Source of the DNA: a virus
Taxonomy: Duplodnaviria; Heunggongvirae; Uroviricota; Caudoviricetes
IMG/VR virus record: IMGVR_UViG_2563366802_000013
Span: 1 to 44,878 of that record
Reading direction: 5' to 3' (one strand)
DNA length: 44,878 nucleotides
Positions 20,726 through 36,804 of the stretch are shown one piece after another. Position numbers and translations under genes: made by a program. Position 1 is the stretch's first letter; each line of letters starts with the position of its first letter. The notes under the pieces were generated by a model. The model was not told where the DNA came from. It saw nothing but the letters and a program-made list of their open reading frames with translations, and made no database searches.

Positions 20726-22031
20726 CTTCTCCTAACGGCTCCTCGTCATCATTGTCATAGCCCGCAGCAGTGCGAATCTCTTTACGACTGAATGCTGGCT
20801 CTTCGCCACTGCCCTGCATGGTCTGGTTAATCTCGCCCATGGTCTTGGCGTTAGTGAGCTTCTCAGTACCGGTCTGTTCGTTCAGGTCATCCCAGATAAC
20901 AGCCTTCTGGCTTACTGAGTCGACTATCTGCAGGTCGATAAGCTTGTCGCAGAAGTCCTCTATCTCGAAAGCGAGGTCTACTCGGCGCGACTGACAGCGA
21001 GCATTAAAGTATTTCTGGTCTTCAGTGCTGGACCGCTCAGCCTGCTGGTTACCAACCAGAATGCGGGTCGGGATATCAACTCCGGCGGCAGCGGTTTGCA
21101 GGTTGACGTTATAGGTCGCTGACGGATCAGCTACAGCAGTAACCAGCGGTGTCACCGTGGCCCCTTGGGTTGTCATCAAAACATCGTTGCCACGGTTCAT
21201 TTCCCCGGCAACTTCGTTAAACTTATCCTGCAACTCGTCAATGCTCACGCCATAAAGTGACGCAAGATTGTTGAAGTCGATTTCCTTCTCAAAGTTGACA
21301 TTAAGCTGGCGCGCGGCGTTCTTCAGGAATGACTCGCCGGATCCACCCTCTACCTTCTCCAGGCTTACAAAGGCGTTATAAGCTGGCTCAAGGAAGCCAA
21401 TAGCATCGTCTGAGTAATCACCAAGGATGAAAACGCGATCGGGGTGGATATTGACGCGGCGACTTGAACCATTCGGCAAGCGTTCGGCGTACTGCCACAT
21501 TTTCGGCTGACCGTAAGTCTTCGAGTTCAGCCCAGTGTCCCACTCGCTCACCGTTAGCGATCCGGCCCATGCCACGGAAACCTTCTGCAACCCTCGCCCT
21601 TTGGTAACCGGAAGGTTCCAGTCTTTTTCATCGCGGACGTGCAGAAGGATGCCTGCATAACGACCGACAAGGCGACGACGATCCGCCTCGGCAAATGAGC
21701 GCCAGAACCGGTTGTTGAATACCTGCTTTGACTTGTTTTCCCAGGCGGTTTCGTTTTCACTCTCGTCGGCATCGTCACCCTCAATGATTTCCGGGTTCGT
21801 CTGCCAGCACTTGCCCACCAGCTTCTCAACGGCACCGTGAGCGATACCACCGCGCCGGTACAGGGCATAGAGATTTTCGTAGGTTACCTGCTCAGGGAAG
21901 CCATACTCACACCATGCGGAATGGCGCTTATTGTCCAGCCCCATCGTCGGTGCCATCAGCCCCATACGGGCGCGCGCCATCCGCGCATCGTTCAACGCAT
22001 GGTTGACGGCGAGAGTTAATTGGTCAGTCAT
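20685..22031 (-). CDS. Portal protein
   Basis: 448 aa immediately downstream of terminase large subunit; acidic C-terminal tail. Confidence 0.75.
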   Translation of the reverse strand: MTDQLTLAVNHALNDARMARARMGLMAPTMGLDNKRHSAWCEYGFPEQVTYENLYALYRRGGIAHGAVEKLVGKCWQTNPEIIEGDDADESENETAWENKSKQVFNNRFWRSFAEADRRRLVGRYAGILLHVRDEKDWNLPVTKGRGLQKVSVAWAGSLTVSEWDTGLNSKTYGQPKMWQYAERLPNGSSRRVNIHPDRVFILGDYSDDAIGFLEPAYNAFVSLEKVEGGSGESFLKNAARQLNVNFEKEIDFNNLASLYGVSIDELQDKFNEVAGEMNRGNDVLMTTQGATVTPLVTAVADPSATYNVNLQTAAAGVDIPTRILVGNQQAERSSTEDQKYFNARCQSRRVDLAFEIEDFCDKLIDLQIVDSVSQKAVIWDDLNEQTGTEKLTNAKTMGEINQTMQGSGEEPAFSRKEIRTAAGYDNDDEEPLGEDGDEKDEATDSAA

Positions 22032-32355: not shown

Positions 32356-32639
32356 TCCTGGCAGATCACGTTTGTGCCCGTCCGCTGAATTAACTTCGAC
32401 TTGCCCTGCTTCATGCCCGGTATAGTGTCAGGGGCGAAGCGCATGCCGTAACTGGTAAGGCTGTACAGGCGCTGGCCGTATTTTCCTTCGCAGCTGATCA
32501 GGCCGTCAGCCAGCAGCGTGCTCACCGTCCCGGATATCTTTTTGGTGTCCATGCCGATAAGACCTGCCAGCTTGGCGTTGTTCAGCCCTGGGTTGTTACG
32601 CAGGGCTGCCAGCACCTGCTCACGGATTGTTATGGTCAT
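32295..32639 (-). CDS. Winged-helix DNA-binding protein (hypothetical)
   Basis: 114 aa; N-terminal HTH-like segment (LAALRNNPGLNNAKLAGLIGMDTKKISGTVSTLLADGLI); directly downstream of dnaB. Confidence 0.45.
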   Translation of the reverse strand: MTITIREQVLAALRNNPGLNNAKLAGLIGMDTKKISGTVSTLLADGLISCEGKYGQRLYSLTSYGMRFAPDTIPGMKQGKSKLIQRTGTNVICQECRNSPAMRRVLMVWGRVGV

Positions 32640-34072
32640 CAGAATCCCCCTTTCTTTTTCGGCTGCTGCTCACGCCCGCGGCGTTCTGCGGCGGCGGCCT
32701 GCTGGTCTGTGTCGTAAATTGCCCCGTTGATCTGATTGCAATAAACCGTTCCGGTACTGCCGTGGCGGTTGAGTCGCAGGATTAACTCGGTTTCTCCCGG
32801 CGGCACGCTGTCATCGAAAGCACCTTCCCGGTGGATACCAACCCAGTAGTCGCAGTCCTGCTCAATCTGCCCTGTGTCGCGGGAATCGCTCGGTAACGGG
32901 CGTTTATTCACTCGCTTCTCCAGTTCGCGGTTGAGCTGGGTCAGCAGCACGACGACGCAGCCAAGCTCTTTAGCGAGGTTCTTCAACCCTTTGGTGATCA
33001 TCCCGTAGGCAAGGTCATTACGGTCTGCTTTTTCGGCGGTCATCAGCGTCAGGTAATCAACCAGAATCATGCCTACGCGGCCCTTCTCGCGTTTGATTCG
33101 GCGGCTTTCGCTAACGATGTGCGCCAGTGACAGGCCCGGAGTGTCGTCGATGTACAGCATGTCGATTTCACTCAGCCGGCCCGCTGTAGCGATCGCCTTC
33201 TTAAAGTCGCCGTCGTAGTCTCCCTGGTACTGGTCGTCGGCGTCATCCGTGGCGGGCATGTAAAAAATGCTCGGGTTTACGCCGGACTTCTGCCCAACAA
33301 GCTTTTCGAGGATCTGGTCGCTGGGCATTTCCAGGCTAAACATCAGCGCTGGCTTTTTCTCGCGAATCGCGCAGTTGATCGCCATCTGCCCGTACAGGGT
33401 TGTCTTGCCCATCTTTGGTCTTGCGCCAATCACAAACAGGGAACCTTTCACCAGGCCTTTCGGCGCTAACAGTCGGTCGAGTGACGGGATGCCGGTACTC
33501 ATGCCACGCTGTTCGCCTGAAGGGTCGAAACGCTTCTCCAGATCCGCCACCCAGTCATCCATAACCTCGCCGAACGACCGCAACCCACGGCGACTGCCGG
33601 TTTTTGAATGGTCTGCGAGCTGGGTGAAAATACCCTGAATGGCCTCGTACTTCTGCGTGGCACTCATGCCGTTGCGGGAATACAGCAGCTCAGTAGCTTC
33701 GGTCAGGCGGTTGATACCGTAGCGCTCCATTGCGGCTTCCCGGACTGATGCAGCGTATGCAACGATGTTTGCAGCGCTTGGAGTGTTCTTGGCGATCTCC
33801 GCCAGGTATGCAAAGCCACCTACCTGCTCCGCGAGCCCTTTGCCTTCGAGCGCGTCGAACAATGTCAGACCATCGACTGGCTTGTTGTCGCGGAACATCT
33901 GGCGCATCTCGGCAAAGATCAGCTGGTGAGGTCGGCTGTAGAACGACTCAGGCTTGAGCATCGCCAGAACCTTCTGGACTCGCTCGCTGTTGTCATCGTC
34001 CAGCAGCAGGCCACCGATAACGCTCTGCTCTGCTTCGAGGTTATGAGGTACAGCCATGAATTCAGCGGTCAT
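32639..34072 (-). CDS. dnaB: Replicative DNA helicase (DnaB family)
   Basis: About 477 aa; N-terminal DnaB domain (NLEAEQSVIGGLLLD), Walker A (GARPKMGKT) and RecA-like fold motifs; ATG near 34072. Confidence 0.9.
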   Translation of the reverse strand: MTAEFMAVPHNLEAEQSVIGGLLLDDDNSERVQKVLAMLKPESFYSRPHQLIFAEMRQMFRDNKPVDGLTLFDALEGKGLAEQVGGFAYLAEIAKNTPSAANIVAYAASVREAAMERYGINRLTEATELLYSRNGMSATQKYEAIQGIFTQLADHSKTGSRRGLRSFGEVMDDWVADLEKRFDPSGEQRGMSTGIPSLDRLLAPKGLVKGSLFVIGARPKMGKTTLYGQMAINCAIREKKPALMFSLEMPSDQILEKLVGQKSGVNPSIFYMPATDDADDQYQGDYDGDFKKAIATAGRLSEIDMLYIDDTPGLSLAHIVSESRRIKREKGRVGMILVDYLTLMTAEKADRNDLAYGMITKGLKNLAKELGCVVVLLTQLNRELEKRVNKRPLPSDSRDTGQIEQDCDYWVGIHREGAFDDSVPPGETELILRLNRHGSTGTVYCNQINGAIYDTDQQAAAAERRGREQQPKKKGGF

Positions 34073-34961
34073 CACGATCCCCCTCGCGCACTTCGATGTA
34101 GAGCTTTTCGGTCAGGAACTTATCGAATTTCATGCGGCGCCAGGTCTTCCCGGATTTCTGGTCTGGTCGGTCTTCAAGCATCCAGCGGCAGTTCTGAGCG
34201 ATGTAGCGCAGATAGCTTCTGAAACCGTCCATATCCATCGGCTTGCCGTCCAGGTTGCGGGCAATCTTGTTAGCCTTACCCCAGAAGGTGCGGATCAGAT
34301 TGCGTCGCTCATCAGTGAGGCATCTCCACCCCCGGGCTTCAGGCAGTTCGTCTTTCAGGCATTGCCATACTTCATCGCATGACAAACGGGACTTTTTCTC
34401 TTCAGCGGGTTTCTGGTCATTTGCGACATACTTACTACCGTTAGGTAGTAAGTTATTTAATATATTGTTATCTGTGGACACTGGCTGGACATCGGCTGGA
34501 CACTCCACCTCCGCAGGCATTGGTACGGCTGCGCTTGGGCTGGACACTGGCTGGACATCGGCTGGACAAAAATTTGACTGATATTCGTCATATTTGACCA
34601 CTTTTAGAACAGTGAAACGGTTGTTCGACTTGGTGGTGATCATGCCCAGATTCTGGAATTTACGGAGCAGTGATTTAACGCGATCAGCGGTCAAACCCGT
34701 TTCCATTGCCAGTGTGTTTCGCCCGGTGATGAACTCTCCGCGCTCGCAGATCACATCGCCAACATCAGTAGATACCAGTGTCTGTTCATGATTAGCACGC
34801 AGGAGCAGGTGAACCCATAAATGAGCCGCCTCAGCGTCCTTGTAGAACGGCACATCCATAATTTTACGGTGCAGCAAGGCAAACCCCTTACCGTCATTCG
34901 TGCGCGGTTTCTGGAGCCTTCTGGCCTCTCTGGCTTCGGCTAAATTGGATACGTTACCCAC
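34062..34961 (-). CDS. Replication initiator (lambda O-like) containing the origin iterons
   Basis: Probable GTG start near 34961 with AAGGAG SD; N-terminal DNA-binding region; internal repeated peptide CPADVQPVS encoded by the iterons; C-terminal helicase-loading-like domain. Confidence 0.7.
   Translation of the reverse strand: MGNVSNLAEAREARRLQKPRTNDGKGFALLHRKIMDVPFYKDAEAAHLWVHLLLRANHEQTLVSTDVGDVICERGEFITGRNTLAMETGLTADRVKSLLRKFQNLGMITTKSNNRFTVLKVVKYDEYQSNFCPADVQPVSSPSAAVPMPAEVECPADVQPVSTDNNILNNLLPNGSKYVANDQKPAEEKKSRLSCDEVWQCLKDELPEARGWRCLTDERRNLIRTFWGKANKIARNLDGKPMDMDGFRSYLRYIAQNCRWMLEDRPDQKSGKTWRRMKFDKFLTEKLYIEVREGDRDDR
34476..34567. repeat. Origin-of-replication iterons (six copies of GCTGGACA-containing 11-bp units in two clusters) with adjacent AT-rich tract
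   Basis: GGACACTGGCTGGACATCGGCTGGACA at about 34476-34502 and again at 34538-34567; AT-rich stretch at about 34440-34472; located inside the O-like gene as in lambda ori. Confidence 0.6.
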
Positions 34962-35100
34962 GGCCAATCTCCTTACGTTTCAGTTCTTCCAGAATGGCGC
35001 GCATCTTCTCTGCCACAATCGGGTTAACCGAGCGGATGAAGCGGTCGCGGGTTATGTTTTTATGTACAGCGGTATGGTAATAGCGTGGATTTTTTGCCAT
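34954..35100 (-). CDS. Hypothetical small basic protein (48 aa)
   Basis: ATG near 35100 with AGGAGG SD; between YdaT-like and O-like genes. Confidence 0.35.
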   Translation of the reverse strand: MAKNPRYYHTAVHKNITRDRFIRSVNPIVAEKMRAILEELKRKEIGRG

Positions 35101-35189: not shown

Positions 35190-35732
35190 TCACATAACCC
35201 CCAACATCGAAGTGACCATAGCCATCAGCGGCGCGGTCAGATCCGGGTCGACACGGAACATCTCTACAATCCCCTCACTGAGTTCCTTGAGCTTCTGGTG
35301 ACGCGGGGCGTTCATCGCAACGGCCACTTTCGCCTCGCTCGTTTCCTTCTCAAGTCGAGCTAAGCGGGACATGAAACTATCCTCGGGAAGAAGTCGATGG
35401 CGATACTCCAGAGGCAGCACGGCCATGATTGCGGGCGTCAGCTGGCGCACGTTCTCGCGGTACTGCTCGGAGTCGAAGCGATTATCCAGGAAGCGAAACA
35501 GTTTCTGGCGCGCCCGGCTGATGTCTTCCGGAAAGCTGATGGCGGTACCGCCCTGCTCCCGGTATTCGTTGATGATCAGCGCCGAAACGACGTCCTGATT
35601 GTCCAGCGCCGACGACCATGCCCGGACCGCATCGCGGATCTTTTCGTGGTCTGGCGCCGCTTTAGCTTGAGCGCGGTTTATCACCGCTCCCTGGTGTATT
35701 CCGGTATTGTGTTGATACGCAAGTGAATGCAT
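35190..35732 (-). CDS. YdaT-like regulatory protein (CII-position)
   Basis: 180 aa; resembles Rac prophage YdaT as I recall it (QKLFRFL, LTPAIMAVLP blocks); directly downstream of the Cro/YdaS-like gene. Confidence 0.55.
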   Translation of the reverse strand: MHSLAYQHNTGIHQGAVINRAQAKAAPDHEKIRDAVRAWSSALDNQDVVSALIINEYREQGGTAISFPEDISRARQKLFRFLDNRFDSEQYRENVRQLTPAIMAVLPLEYRHRLLPEDSFMSRLARLEKETSEAKVAVAMNAPRHQKLKELSEGIVEMFRVDPDLTAPLMAMVTSMLGVM

Positions 35733-35761
35733 TGCTTTCCCTTTCGTGGTTAGGGCCGCCG

Positions 35762-35989
35762 TTAAGCGGCATGGTTCTCTGGGTGTGGAAACAGGTCGGG
35801 AAGATCAGGTCGAATTTCGTGTGCCTTAATCTCGCCACCAGTAGCGTTTACGATGGCTGTTACTTTTTCCGGAGATACGGAACCACCGTTAAGCCACTTG
35901 TGAACCGCTGGCTGGCTAACGCCGCAAATATCTGCGAGTCGCTTCTGGCTGCCAACGATTTCTAAAGCTCGTTGAATAACTTTGTTCAT
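35762..35989 (-). CDS. cro: Cro/YdaS-like HTH repressor
   Basis: 75 aa; HTH SQKRLADICGVSQPAVHKWLNG; divergent from cI across the operator region. Confidence 0.75.
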   Translation of the reverse strand: MNKVIQRALEIVGSQKRLADICGVSQPAVHKWLNGGSVSPEKVTAIVNATGGEIKAHEIRPDLPDLFPHPENHAA

Positions 35990-36022
35990 GGATTTTACCT
36001 ATCCGATTACTGGATTAATGAA

Positions 36023-36093
36023 AAGATAACCCAAGTTATGACCATTGTCCATAACCTTTGTTATTTTACTCTGCATAACCTGAGTTATATATT
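36023..36093. promoter_or_regulatory. OR operator region with divergent pR/pRM: three 14-bp palindromes ATAAC-N4-GTTAT
   Basis: Sites at 36026-36039 (ATAACCCAAGTTAT), 36051-36064 (ATAACCTTTGTTAT), 36075-36088 (ATAACCTGAGTTAT), spaced 24-25 bp; candidate pR -35 TGGACA / -10 TATCTT on the minus strand; candidate pRM -10 TATATT just upstream of a nearly leaderless cI ATG. Confidence 0.6.
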
Positions 36094-36099
36094 GGCGCT

Positions 36100-36804
36100 A
36101 TGAAAACATTCGCAGATCGACTTAACGCGGCTATGAGAGCCGCAGGCATATCCCAAGGGCAGCTGGCTGAGAAAGTCGGCATATCTCAACCTGCAATTCA
36201 GAAAATGACATCAGGCAAAACCACAGGCAGCCGTAAGATGGTTGAGCTTGCTCATGCATTGAACGTGCGTCCGGAATGGCTCAGTTCGGGCATAGGCTCA
36301 ATGCAGGACGAAGGACGCAAGGACTCCGCTATCCCACCAGAATCGGAATGGGGTAAAGTTGACGCTTGGGATAGCAAAACAGATCTGCCAGATGACGAGG
36401 TCGAAGTGCCATATCTGAAAGACATAGAACTTGCGTGTGGTGATGGTTCCTGCTTGGAAGATGACTATAACGGATTCAAACTTCGTTTTGCGAAGTCTAC
36501 CCTTCGTAAGGTGGGAGCCCAGAAAGATAGCGTGCTGTGCTTCCCGGCATCAGGAAATAGCATGGAGCCCATGATCCCGGAAGGGACGACGGTCGCCATC
36601 AACACGAACGACAAAAAGATCGTTGATGGCAAGGTTTATGCAATAAGCCAGGACGGATGGAAAAGGCTAAAATCCATTTATCGTGTGAGTCCTACCCGCA
36701 TCGTGATTCGCAGCTTCAACAGTGAAGAGTACCCTGATGAAGAAGCGGATATCGAGAGCGTAGAGATTATTGGTCGCATGTTCTGGACATCTACTATCTG
36801 GTAA
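36100..36804 (+). CDS. cI: CI-type prophage repressor (N-terminal HTH, C-terminal S24 LexA-like autopeptidase)
   Basis: 234 aa; HTH ISQGQLAEKVGISQPAIQKM; S24 catalytic block GNSMEP and Lys in ...DGWKRLK... Confidence 0.9.
   Translation: MKTFADRLNAAMRAAGISQGQLAEKVGISQPAIQKMTSGKTTGSRKMVELAHALNVRPEWLSSGIGSMQDEGRKDSAIPPESEWGKVDAWDSKTDLPDDEVEVPYLKDIELACGDGSCLEDDYNGFKLRFAKSTLRKVGAQKDSVLCFPASGNSMEPMIPEGTTVAINTNDKKIVDGKVYAISQDGWKRLKSIYRVSPTRIVIRSFNSEEYPDEEADIESVEIIGRMFWTSTIW

What the first reader, a model, noticed from the sequence alone, without database searches (positions are those of the whole stretch)
34440..34567. Replication origin iterons embedded in the O-like initiator gene
Two clusters, each with three copies of an 11-bp unit ending in GCTGGACA, lie about 35 bp apart next to an AT-rich tract, inside the O-like ORF. 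They are translated as the repeated peptide CPADVQPVS. This mirrors lambda ori (iterons plus AT-rich region within O) and defines the likely origin.
Basis: partly seen in the sequence, partly recalled or inferred. Interest (0 to 1): 0.4.

Follow-up and report, generated by a model that had tools for sequence, protein, structure and literature searches.

The report
Phage replication origin inside initiator gene
The repeats are real and are very probably the replication origin of a lambda-like prophage, lying inside the gene for the protein that binds them; this layout is already known from phages HK022, HK620, Sf6 and L, and only the repeat sequence (TGTCCAGCC) is new.

Summary
Observation confirmed. 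GGCTGGACA occurs five times exactly within 86 bp (about 0.4 copies expected in the whole window), plus one truncated unit. The units form two triplets of 11-bp direct repeats exactly 66 bp apart, next to a 16-bp tract of 6% GC and a perfect 10-bp-arm palindrome. All lie in the middle of a 299-301-aa initiator gene on the minus strand, upstream of a DnaB-type helicase gene.

Interpretation supported by comparison, not by experiment. The protein is 52% identical over its full length to HK620 O. [quoted passage not shown]

New evidence from 74 distinct relatives:
- Third codon positions vary at 4/30 sites in the origin elements against 135/223 in the flanking coding sequence.
- The spacer and unit positions 9-11 are hypervariable.
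- The repeat sequence changes with the N-terminal winged-helix domain, not with the C-terminal domain.
- The palindrome keeps its pairing while its sequence changes.
- The origin DNA encodes a predicted disordered linker.

Verdict: a new specificity variant of a known kind of origin. It is like lambda in layout but not in iteron structure. Modest interest.

The parts
34062..34967 (-). Initiator gene (O / gp18-like, HK022-HK620-L-Sf6 type). The ORF as listed starts at TTG 34967 (301 aa). The real start is probably GTG 34961 (299 aa), as in relatives that begin MGNVSNL.
   Evidence: ORF list. PHROG 345 E 4.7e-68 over the full length. 52% identity to HK620 O over 299 aa. 98% DNA identity to Enterobacter phage CobraSix gene 58. 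Start inferred from the alignment of homologues.
34578..34865 (-). Coding sequence of the N-terminal winged-helix domain (about residues 35-130), the presumed iteron-binding domain. It ends in the conserved motif VVKYDEYQ.
   Evidence: AlphaFold2 model has pLDDT about 70-84 here, with a helix-strand-helix-helix-wing order. Foldseek matches winged-helix DNA binders such as CodY, SmtB and TubR at E 0.01-0.1. The PHROG 345 profile matches the lambda O N-domain at E 5e-17. This domain's type tracks the iteron class.
34569..34601 (-). Last 11 codons of the N-domain (VVKYDEYQSNF). The stretch is 30% GC, unusually conserved at the DNA level, and always exactly 33 nt long before unit 1.
   Evidence: 4/33 columns vary, and 2/11 third positions, among 74 distinct sequences. 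GC. Constant offset in 15 representative loci.
34536..34568 (-). Iteron cluster I, the first in the direction of the gene. Units are 34568-34558 TGTCCAGCCGA, 34557-34547 TGTCCAGCCAG and 34546-34536 TGTCCAGCCCA. It encodes CPADVQPVSSP.
   Evidence: The 8-nt core TGTCCAGC is nearly invariant in 74 distinct relatives even at wobble positions, while unit positions 9-11 vary.
34503..34535 (-). Spacer of exactly 33 bp (three unit lengths). It is hypervariable in sequence but constant in length.
   Evidence: 22/33 columns vary against 181/668 in the flanking coding sequence. The length is the same in all four iteron classes.
34470..34502 (-). Iteron cluster II. Units are 34502-34492 TGTCCAGCCGA, 34491-34481 TGTCCAGCCAG and 34480-34470 TGTCCACAGAT (truncated core, invariant in 74/74).
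   Evidence: Natural single-cluster variants retain exactly this arrangement.
34454..34469 (-). AT-rich tract (gene strand AACAATATATTAAATA, 6% GC), the presumed site of first strand opening.
   Evidence: 1/16 columns vary among 74 sequences. It lies on the same side of the iterons, relative to transcription of the gene, as the AT-rich region of lambda ori.
34430..34453 (.). Perfect palindrome with 10-bp arms and a 4-nt loop (ACTTACTACC TAAC GGTAGTAAGT on the gene strand).
   Evidence: As single-stranded DNA it folds at -8.6 kcal/mol, z = -5. A palindrome with 9-11-bp arms sits at the same offset in ten different sequence versions (eight enterobacterial plus two distant relatives, besides a loop variant of the window's own), each with shuffle p <= 0.006. 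Lambda has an analogous palindrome with 12-bp arms and a 4-nt loop.
34074..34385 (-). Coding sequence of the C-terminal helical domain (about residues 195-298), presumed to recruit the phage helicase.
   Evidence: pLDDT 80-92. PHROG 24933 matches residues 182-301. This domain recombines independently of the N-domain and iterons. Its role is inferred from lambda O.
32639..34075 (-). DnaB-type replicative helicase gene. It overlaps the end of the initiator gene by 14 nt.
   Evidence: Pfam DnaB_C at 1.3e-58 and DnaB N-terminal domain at 1.6e-31. The same gene order is found in HK620, HK022, L and Sf6.

Best explanation
This is the replication origin of a lambda-like (lambdoid) temperate phage or prophage. 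It lies in the stretch of the initiator gene that encodes the linker between the protein's two domains.

Proposed mechanism. Only the anatomy and the selection signatures are shown; every step below is inferred.
1. Rightward early transcription produces the initiator.
2. Its N-terminal winged-helix domain binds the 11-bp units (core TGTCCAGC). The units are direct repeats one helical turn apart and have no dyad symmetry. Proteins probably line up head to tail on one face of the DNA, two strong sites plus one partial site per triplet.
3. The two triplets, held exactly 66 bp apart, assemble into a higher-order complex like the lambda O-some.
4. This complex strains and opens the adjacent 16-bp AT tract. 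The palindrome next to it can extrude as a hairpin.
5. The C-terminal domain brings in the phage's own DnaB-type helicase, encoded by the next gene.

Because the DNA carries the function, the protein segment it encodes (residues ~131-193) is only a disordered linker.
For: Anatomy: five exact units and one truncated unit, 11-bp spacing, 66-bp cluster offset, a 6% GC tract and a perfect palindrome.

Homology and precedent:
- Full-length homologue of HK620 O and member of PHROG 345, with a DnaB-type helicase gene downstream.
- The HK620, Sf6 and L records annotate the same structure as an origin; Sf6 and L mark it putative.

Selection on the DNA itself, in 74 distinct same-class sequences:
- Third codon positions vary at 2/15 sites in iteron cores.
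- They vary at 4/30 sites in cores, AT tract and palindrome together, against 135/223 in the flanking coding sequence (Fisher p = 8e-7).
- The spacer and unit positions 9-11 are hypervariable, 34/48 against 181/668 (p = 2e-9).
- Each core is read in all three frames (11 mod 3 = 2), so protein-level selection cannot explain this.

Specificity:
- Iteron class follows N-domain similarity (Mantel r = 0.63, p = 0.0002), not C-domain similarity (r = 0.004, p = 0.44).
- Window vs L007: same N-domain, 51% C-domain identity, same iteron.
- HK620 vs Sf6: 98% C-domain identity, 50% N-domain identity, different iterons.

Geometry and structure:
- Unit offsets are identical in 15/15 representatives across four classes.
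- The palindrome is maintained through sequence turnover.
- The origin-encoded protein segment has pLDDT < 50, between two folded domains.
- The plaque-forming phages CobraSix and Chronis carry the same module.
Against: There is no experimental evidence for this class, and I found none for the HK022/HK620/L/Sf6 type either. The database 'rep_origin' features and the sentence in the phage L paper are themselves inferences by analogy with lambda.

Pfam Phage_rep_O does not match this protein. A shallow profile comparison with lambda O found nothing. Homology to the one experimentally proven case therefore rests only on a PHROG profile hit.

The AT tract is short, 16 bp against about 40 bp in lambda.

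Variants with a single cluster are common (P0008 in 20 contigs), so the second triplet may be dispensable or those prophages may be defective.

The column-count statistics ignore how the sequences are related to one another.
Confidence: 0.85

Rival explanations
1. The repeats are only a duplicated coding segment, a repeated peptide in a protein linker, with no function as DNA.
For: The repeats are in frame and encode CPADVQPVS twice. The 66-bp unit can be lost by recombination without breaking the frame.
Against: The cores are conserved at wobble positions in all three reading frames (2/15 sites vary against 135/223 in the flanks). Amino-acid-changing positions between the cores and in the spacer vary freely. 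The encoded segment is predicted disordered. The repeat sequence tracks the DNA-binding domain type. The adjacent non-repeated AT tract and palindrome are also frozen at the DNA level.
Confidence: 0.02
2. The units are initiator-binding sites, but their main role is control, such as autoregulation, titration or pairing of copies (handcuffing). Strand opening and helicase loading would occur at another site.
For: In iteron plasmids the same repeats also serve in copy control (general knowledge; reviewed in PMC4980987, listed but not read). Nothing here locates the actual start of synthesis.
Against: An extremely AT-rich tract and a conserved hairpin lie immediately beside the sites, in the same order as in lambda ori. 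No second cluster of units exists in the window: the only other exact copy is a single one at 21932. No promoter-like site overlaps the repeats.
Confidence: 0.06
3. The palindrome plus T-rich tract (34430-34463) is an intrinsic terminator for transcription entering against the direction of the gene, not an origin element. This concerns that part only.
For: The consensus scan scores it as terminator-like on the + strand. The phage L record carries automated terminator features at the same place.
Against: The tail TATTTAATAT is a poor U-tract and the stem has only 4 G-C pairs in 10. The scan found fewer terminator-like sites than in shuffles, 2 against 2.7. No transcription unit is known that would enter from that side. 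Lambda ori has an equivalent palindrome. Position and pairing are conserved with the origin module in relatives whose downstream sequence differs.
Confidence: 0.07

Closest known systems
Putative origins inside gene 18 / O of Salmonella phage L and Shigella phage Sf6 (TGTCCAACGG units)
   Same: The architecture is identical. There are two triplets of 11-bp direct repeats 66 bp apart, starting 33 nt after the VKYD[DE][YF]Q codons. The last unit is truncated, followed by an AT-rich tract and then a palindrome with a 4-nt loop. A DnaB-type helicase gene lies downstream. The protein is in the same PHROG 345. The first six bases of the unit (TGTCCA) are shared.
   Different: Core positions 7-9 differ (GCC here, ACG there). 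The N-domains are only about 46-50% identical. The palindrome sequence differs (TCTCTAATAC-TRAC-GTATTAGAGA, loop TGAC in Sf6 and TAAC in phage L). Hybrid-phage work cited in the phage L paper (Hilliker 1981) showed that L replication genes cannot individually substitute for those of P22, which bears on specificity among these gene-18-type initiators.
Origins inside the O genes of coliphages HK620 and HK022; the same O type is found in VT2-Sakai and other Stx phages
   Same: Full-length homologue, 52% identity. The first ~50 codons are 85% identical at the DNA level. The two-triplet geometry is the same, and HK620 annotates it as rep_origin in two pieces. A DnaB-type 'P' gene lies downstream.
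   Different: The units are [G/T]TACCAGCA. The recognition-helix and wing regions of the N-domain differ.
Bacteriophage lambda ori within gene O
   Same: The origin lies inside the initiator gene, between the parts encoding the N-terminal DNA-binding domain and the C-terminal partner-binding domain. The order along the gene is iterons, then AT-rich tract, then a palindrome with a 4-nt loop. Iteron specificity resides in the N-domain. The lambda O N-domain matches the PHROG 345 profile at E 5e-17.
   Different: Lambda has four ~18-19-bp iterons, each an imperfect inverted repeat bound by an O dimer (PMC7466680), spaced about 20-24 bp apart. Here there are six 11-bp direct repeats with no dyad symmetry. 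Pfam Phage_rep_O does not match this protein. The AT tract is 16 bp against about 40 bp. The partner is a phage DnaB-type helicase, not the lambda P loader.
Phage P22 gene 18 origin
   Same: Same genome position and same helicase partner type (gp12).
   Different: According to PMC8022706, P22 gene 18 holds four ~20-bp repeats, and L gp18 is only 25% identical to P22 gp18. That is a different iteron architecture.
Winged-helix response regulators on direct repeats (PhoB/OmpR type). This is an analogy for the binding mode only, from my own knowledge.
   Same: Winged-helix domains bind head to tail to direct repeats spaced about 11 bp apart, on one face of the DNA.
   Different: These are unrelated proteins that regulate transcription. 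No homology was tested or is claimed.

Membership tests
HK022/HK620/L/Sf6-type lambdoid initiator with intragenic origin (PHROG 345) | Full-length protein homology to HK620 O / phage L gp18 | tested here: met
   52% identity over 299 aa, E 6e-113. PHROG 345 E 4.7e-68 over residues 5-301; HK620 O and L gp18 hit the same PHROG.
HK022/HK620/L/Sf6-type lambdoid initiator with intragenic origin (PHROG 345) | Six imprecise 11-bp direct repeats in two triplets in the middle of the gene | tested here: met
   Units lie at +33, +44, +55, +99, +110 and +121 nt from the VVKYDEYQ codons, the same offsets as in HK620, HK022, L and Sf6.
HK022/HK620/L/Sf6-type lambdoid initiator with intragenic origin (PHROG 345) | AT-rich tract and palindrome immediately after the last unit | tested here: met
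   16 bp at 6% GC, then a palindrome with 10-bp arms and a 4-nt loop. The equivalent elements are present in relatives.
HK022/HK620/L/Sf6-type lambdoid initiator with intragenic origin (PHROG 345) | DnaB-type helicase gene directly downstream | tested here: met
   Pfam DnaB and DnaB_C on 32639-34075, overlapping the initiator stop codon.
HK022/HK620/L/Sf6-type lambdoid initiator with intragenic origin (PHROG 345) | Repeat sequence specific to the N-terminal domain type | tested here: met
   Mantel r = 0.63, p = 0.0002 against the N-domain; r = 0.004 against the C-domain; informative mosaic pairs.
HK022/HK620/L/Sf6-type lambdoid initiator with intragenic origin (PHROG 345) | Initiator binds the repeats and replication starts there | not testable with these tools
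   This needs binding and origin-activity experiments. I found no published experiment for any member of this type.
Lambda O / ori-lambda family (Pfam PF04492 Phage_rep_O) | Match to Pfam Phage_rep_O | tested here: not met
   No hit at E <= 0.01 for the window protein, HK620 O or L gp18, whereas lambda O scores 5.7e-36. hhalign of A2 against lambda O gives probability 0.1%. There is remote similarity only: lambda O residues 16-169 hit PHROG 345 at E 5e-17.
Lambda O / ori-lambda family (Pfam PF04492 Phage_rep_O) | Iterons of ~18-19 bp with internal dyad symmetry | tested here: not met
   No inverted repeat lies within or between the units. The lambda iterons show the symmetry under the same tool.
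Lambda O / ori-lambda family (Pfam PF04492 Phage_rep_O) | Origin inside the initiator gene, in the order iterons, AT-rich tract, palindrome | tested here: met
Lambda O / ori-lambda family (Pfam PF04492 Phage_rep_O) | Lambda P-type helicase loader as partner gene | tested here: not met
   The downstream gene is a DnaB-type helicase.
P22 gene 18 type | Four ~20-bp repeats within the gene | tested here: not met
   The window has six 11-bp units. The P22 description is taken from PMC8022706; the P22 sequence itself was not examined.

The most novel reading that the evidence does not exclude
The 11-bp direct-repeat origins of this initiator family may work by a binding mode different from lambda's dimers on palindromic iterons. 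Winged-helix N-domains would stack head to tail on two helically phased triplets held exactly 66 bp apart. A hairpin defined by its structure rather than its sequence would then mark where the phage helicase enters. The same plan (11-nt periodic repeats straight after the VKYD[DE]YQ motif, then an AT tract) seems to extend to homologous 'DnaD-like / replisome organiser' genes of phages of Firmicutes and Bacteroidota. If so, it is an ancient and widespread origin design that has never been studied biochemically.
Probability: 0.35. Interest if true: 0.45.

Novelty: new member of a known kind. Interest (0 to 1): 0.27.

Why it matters
It places the origin of this prophage and of its relatives, including the isolated phages CobraSix and Chronis, whose records leave the gene unannotated or generic.

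It adds a fourth iteron class to a family in which four classes share one rigid geometry: TGTCCAGCC here, TGTCCAACG, TTACCAGCA and TTGCCAACA. Together with the matching differences in the recognition helix and wing, this is a natural specificity series. It could be used to work out how a winged-helix initiator reads 11-bp direct repeats, and to build replicons that do not cross-react.

It is also a clean example of dual coding in which the DNA function dominates: wobble positions are frozen, amino-acid-changing positions are free, and the encoded peptide is a disordered linker. The basic idea, an origin inside the initiator gene, has been textbook knowledge since lambda, so the surprise is small.

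Tried and rejected
- Profile comparison of the family alignment with lambda O (hhalign) gave no signal. The alignment is shallow (Neff 1.6), so this is uninformative rather than negative.
- A sequence search of the PDB and NCBIfam returned nothing.
- The Foldseek search gave only generic winged-helix regulators at weak E-values. It supports the fold class, not any family.
- DnaA-box idea: the truncated sixth unit, GTGTCCACA, matches TTATCCACA at 7/9. I dropped the idea because the equivalent units in HK620 (ATTACCACA) and Sf6 (TTGTCCATA) are no closer to the consensus.
- Conserved lambdoid oop/boundary sequence upstream of the gene: absent.
- Extra iteron copies elsewhere in the window that might suggest control sites: only one isolated exact copy, at 21932. 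One-mismatch copies outside the origin (16, against about 11 expected) are not clustered.
- A literature search by the iteron strings returned only unrelated primer matches. Papers naming CobraSix or Chronis were only listed, not opened. The HK022 (PMC523588) and P22 (PMC94795) papers are not held, and the HK620 and Sf6 genome papers are not in the library. What those authors wrote is therefore known only through their GenBank features.
- Two of the five hairpin folds (L007, L009) used wrong coordinates and should be ignored.
- I did not use GC skew as evidence for an origin. The strand switch of transcription at the immunity region would confound it.
Full report
**1. What is in the sequence**

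The region lies inside a 301-codon ORF on the minus strand, 34062-34967. The real start is probably GTG 34961, giving 299 aa. Read in the direction of the gene, the order is as follows.

| Element | Window coordinates | Sequence (gene strand) or note |
|---|---|---|
| Last 11 codons of the N-domain (VVKYDEYQSNF) | 34601-34569 | 30% GC |
| Unit 1 | 34568-34558 | TGTCCAGCCGA |
| Unit 2 | 34557-34547 | TGTCCAGCCAG |
| Unit 3 | 34546-34536 | TGTCCAGCCCA |
| Spacer | 34535-34503 | exactly 33 bp |
| Unit 4 | 34502-34492 | TGTCCAGCCGA |
| Unit 5 | 34491-34481 | TGTCCAGCCAG |
| Unit 6 | 34480-34470 | TGTCCACAGAT (truncated core) |
| AT-rich tract | 34469-34454 | AACAATATATTAAATA, 6% GC |
| Palindrome | 34453-34430 | ACTTACTACC-TAAC-GGTAGTAAGT, perfect |

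The nonamer GGCTGGACA occurs five times exactly within 86 bp. It occurs once elsewhere in 44.9 kb, where about 0.4 copies are expected. TRF finds period 11 in both clusters. The clusters are 66 bp (6 x 11) apart. There is no dyad symmetry within or between units. CPADVQPVS is encoded twice, 22 codons apart.

Five of the six units, not all six, end in GCTGGACA. The repeats read on the minus strand. The stated range cuts a palindrome that belongs to the module.

**2. Context**

- The ORF matches PHROG 345 'replication initiation O-like' over its whole length (E 5e-68). It has no significant Pfam or NCBIfam match.
- Its stop codon overlaps the start of a DnaB-type helicase gene, 32639-34075.
- Upstream lie a small overlapping ORF, a YdaT-like gene, a YdaS/Cro-like gene and a divergent cI-like S24 repressor gene. 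This is a lambdoid early-right operon.
- The closest phages are Enterobacter phage CobraSix (98% identity over the gene) and Klebsiella phage Chronis (93.5%). Both were isolated from sewage, and both carry the same repeats.
- The rest of the window is a mosaic related to CobraSix, other Enterobacter phages and phi80.

**3. This kind of origin is already described**

- The protein is 52% identical over its full length to HK620 O. Its first ~50 codons are 85% identical at the DNA level to HK620, HK022 and several Stx phages.
- The HK620 record annotates a two-piece rep_origin inside O. The sequence there is GTACCAGCAGA TTACCAGCAAA TTACCAC, a spacer, then the same triplet again, followed by an AT-rich tract and a palindrome.
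- The Sf6 record annotates a 'repeat region reminiscent of the phage lambda origin; similar to phage HK620'. The phage L record annotates a 'putative origin of replication'. Both have TGTCCAACGG units in the same layout.
[quoted passage not shown] It says that P22 gene 18 has four ~20-bp repeats. It also says that these proteins vary with their origin-binding specificity (PMC8022706).
- All of these statements are inferences by analogy with lambda. I found no binding or origin-mapping experiment for this type. I found no mention of the TGTCCAGCC units; papers naming CobraSix or Chronis were listed but not opened.

**4. New comparative evidence that the DNA itself is under selection**

I collected 21 genome loci and 80 viral loci that encode relatives. 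Among 74 distinct sequences with the same N-domain class, the results were as follows.

| Sites compared | Variable / total | Comparison | Fisher p |
|---|---|---|---|
| Third codon positions, N-domain | 59/100 | flank | |
| Third codon positions, C-terminal part | 76/123 | flank | |
| Third codon positions, iteron cores | 2/15 | vs 135/223 in the flanks | 0.0006 |
| Third codon positions, cores + unit 6 tail + AT tract + palindrome | 4/30 | vs 135/223 in the flanks | 8e-7 |
| All columns, spacer + unit positions 9-11 | 34/48 | vs 181/668 in the flanks | 2e-9 |

Many of the changes in the spacer and in unit positions 9-11 alter the amino acid. Because 11 mod 3 = 2, the same core is read in all three frames across a triplet. 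Each core position is therefore a wobble position in one of the three units, yet the core TGTCCAGC is almost invariant in every slot. Selection on the protein cannot produce this pattern. A DNA-binding site can.

**5. Specificity tracks the N-terminal domain**

Four iteron classes share one geometry.

| Iteron class | Found in |
|---|---|
| TGTCCAGC[C/G/A] | this window and relatives |
| TGTCCAACG | phage L, Sf6 |
| [G/T]TACCAGCA | HK022, HK620, an Enterobacter adelaidei prophage |
| [G/T]TGCCAACA | Brenneria and Pantoea prophages |

In all 15 representatives the units lie at +33, +44, +55, +99, +110 and +121 nt from the VVKYD codons. Similarity of the iteron consensus follows N-domain identity (Mantel r = 0.63, p = 0.0002) and not C-domain identity (r = 0.004, p = 0.44).

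Natural mosaics make the same point.

| Pair | N-domain identity | C-domain identity | Iterons |
|---|---|---|---|
| window vs L007 | 100% | 51% | same |
| HK620 vs Sf6 | 50% | 98% | different |
| L011 vs L016 | 72% | 17% | same |

The residues that differ between classes lie mainly at the start of the predicted recognition helix (about residues 94-99) and in the wing (about 110-117). This comes from reading the alignment against the model and is an inference.

**6. The palindrome**

A perfect inverted repeat with 9-11-bp arms lies at +148 to +156 in eight different enterobacterial sequence versions. Examples are ACTTACTACC, ACTCTCTTAC, CAATACTATC, CTCTTCTAC, ACTCATTAGAT, ACTTAATATCT, TCTCTAATAC and ATCTAATAC. 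Two distant relatives also have one at about that offset (+131 and +156). Each is unlikely by shuffling (p <= 0.006). Pairing is kept while the sequence turns over, which points to a structural element rather than a sequence-specific site.

As single-stranded DNA it folds at -8.6 kcal/mol (z about -5). Lambda ori has an analogous palindrome with 12-bp arms and a 4-nt loop after its AT-rich region. On the + strand the element also scores as terminator-like, which I treat as a minor rival explanation.

**7. Protein architecture**

The AlphaFold2 model comes from a shallow alignment and has a mean pLDDT of 65. It shows three parts.
- A winged-helix N-domain, residues ~35-130, pLDDT 70-84.
- A segment with pLDDT below 50, residues 131-193.
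- A confident helical C-domain, residues 195-298, pLDDT 80-92.

The low-confidence segment is the part encoded by the iterons, spacer, AT tract and palindrome. Foldseek matches the N-domain weakly to winged-helix DNA binders.

Lambda O's N-domain hits the PHROG 345 profile at E 5e-17. Pfam Phage_rep_O does not reach this protein, and hhalign with the shallow alignment finds nothing. Homology to lambda O is therefore remote at best.

**8. Variants**

Seven of the 120 best protein clusters are 277 aa long. Their DNA shows an exact 66-bp deletion that leaves one triplet, the AT tract and the palindrome, with an intact helicase gene downstream. One such protein occurs on 20 Salmonella contigs.

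For lambda, work cited in PMC7466680 reports that the two iterons next to the AT-rich region suffice in vitro. A one-triplet origin may therefore still fire, but this is untested.

**9. Mechanism and verdict**

The best explanation (confidence about 0.85) is that this is the phage's origin. In this reading:
- The N-domain binds the 11-bp direct repeats, probably head to tail on one face of the helix.
- The two phased triplets build a complex like the lambda O-some.
- The AT tract opens, and the hairpin may assist.
- The C-domain recruits the phage's DnaB-type helicase.

The anatomy and the selection signatures are shown. The binding, opening and loading steps are inferred from lambda and from the comparative pattern.

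The feature works like lambda ori but fails the defining tests for membership of the lambda O family: the Pfam model, the dyad iterons and the P-type partner. It is a clear member of the HK022/HK620/L/Sf6 type, with a repeat sequence not previously noted. I rate it a new member of a known kind, of modest interest.

Noticed in passing
L018, L019, L021, L022 (about 300-450 nt into the homologous genes): Distant homologues of the N-domain occur in Flavobacteriales, Lachnospiraceae, Anaerosporobacter and Ruminococcaceae contigs. They also carry repeats with 11-nt periodicity directly after the VKYD[DE]YQ motif, followed by AT-rich sequence. Lag 11 is the best or second-best autocorrelation lag in 9 of 10 representatives. 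The design may be much older than the lambdoid phages.
   Followed up: partly
window 34569-34601: The 33 nt before unit 1 (codons VVKYDEYQSNF) are 30% GC and vary at only 2 of 11 third codon positions among 74 relatives. There may be DNA-level constraint on this side of the iterons as well, for example a second easily melted flank or a host-factor site.
   Followed up: no
L108-L111 (3340-3540 in L108 and L110): Natural single-triplet origins: an exact 66-bp in-frame deletion gives 277-aa initiators in Salmonella and Klebsiella prophages. One of them occurs on 20 contigs with an intact helicase gene. Whether these origins still fire is unknown.
   Followed up: partly
window 34430-34463, + strand: The origin palindrome and the following T-rich run score as an intrinsic-terminator-like site facing against the initiator gene. 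The phage L record has automated terminator features at the equivalent place.
   Followed up: partly
window 34470-34480: The sixth unit always has a truncated core (TGTCCAC, then AGAT) and is invariant in 74/74 relatives. In every class, the third unit of each triplet is the weakest or is truncated. Its 7/9 match to a DnaA box is not shared by the other classes.
   Followed up: partly
window 34815-34967 (first ~50 codons of the initiator gene): This stretch is 85% identical at the DNA level to HK620, HK022, mEp235 and many Stx phages. The rest of the gene has diverged beyond megablast detection. This marks a mosaic junction inside the N-terminal region, upstream of the specificity-determining part.
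   Followed up: no
window 35190-36804: The immunity region has a cI-like S24 repressor gene (36100-36804, +). Opposite it lie a YdaS/Cro-like gene (35762-35989, -) and a YdaT-like gene (35190-35732, -), where lambda has cII. The conserved lambdoid oop boundary sequence is absent.
   Followed up: no
L013 (contig CACSKA010000001.1, labelled Chryseobacterium sp.): This 799-kb contig, labelled Chryseobacterium, carries an Sf6-like enterobacterial replication module: 86% identity to Sf6 in both domains and the same TGTCCAACGG units. Either the assembly is not Chryseobacterium or there was a recent transfer.
   Followed up: no
P0027 (246 aa, 2.3-kb contig): This variant keeps both iteron triplets but lacks the AT tract, the palindrome and the start of the C-domain. 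It is probably a defective copy or an assembly artefact.
   Followed up: no
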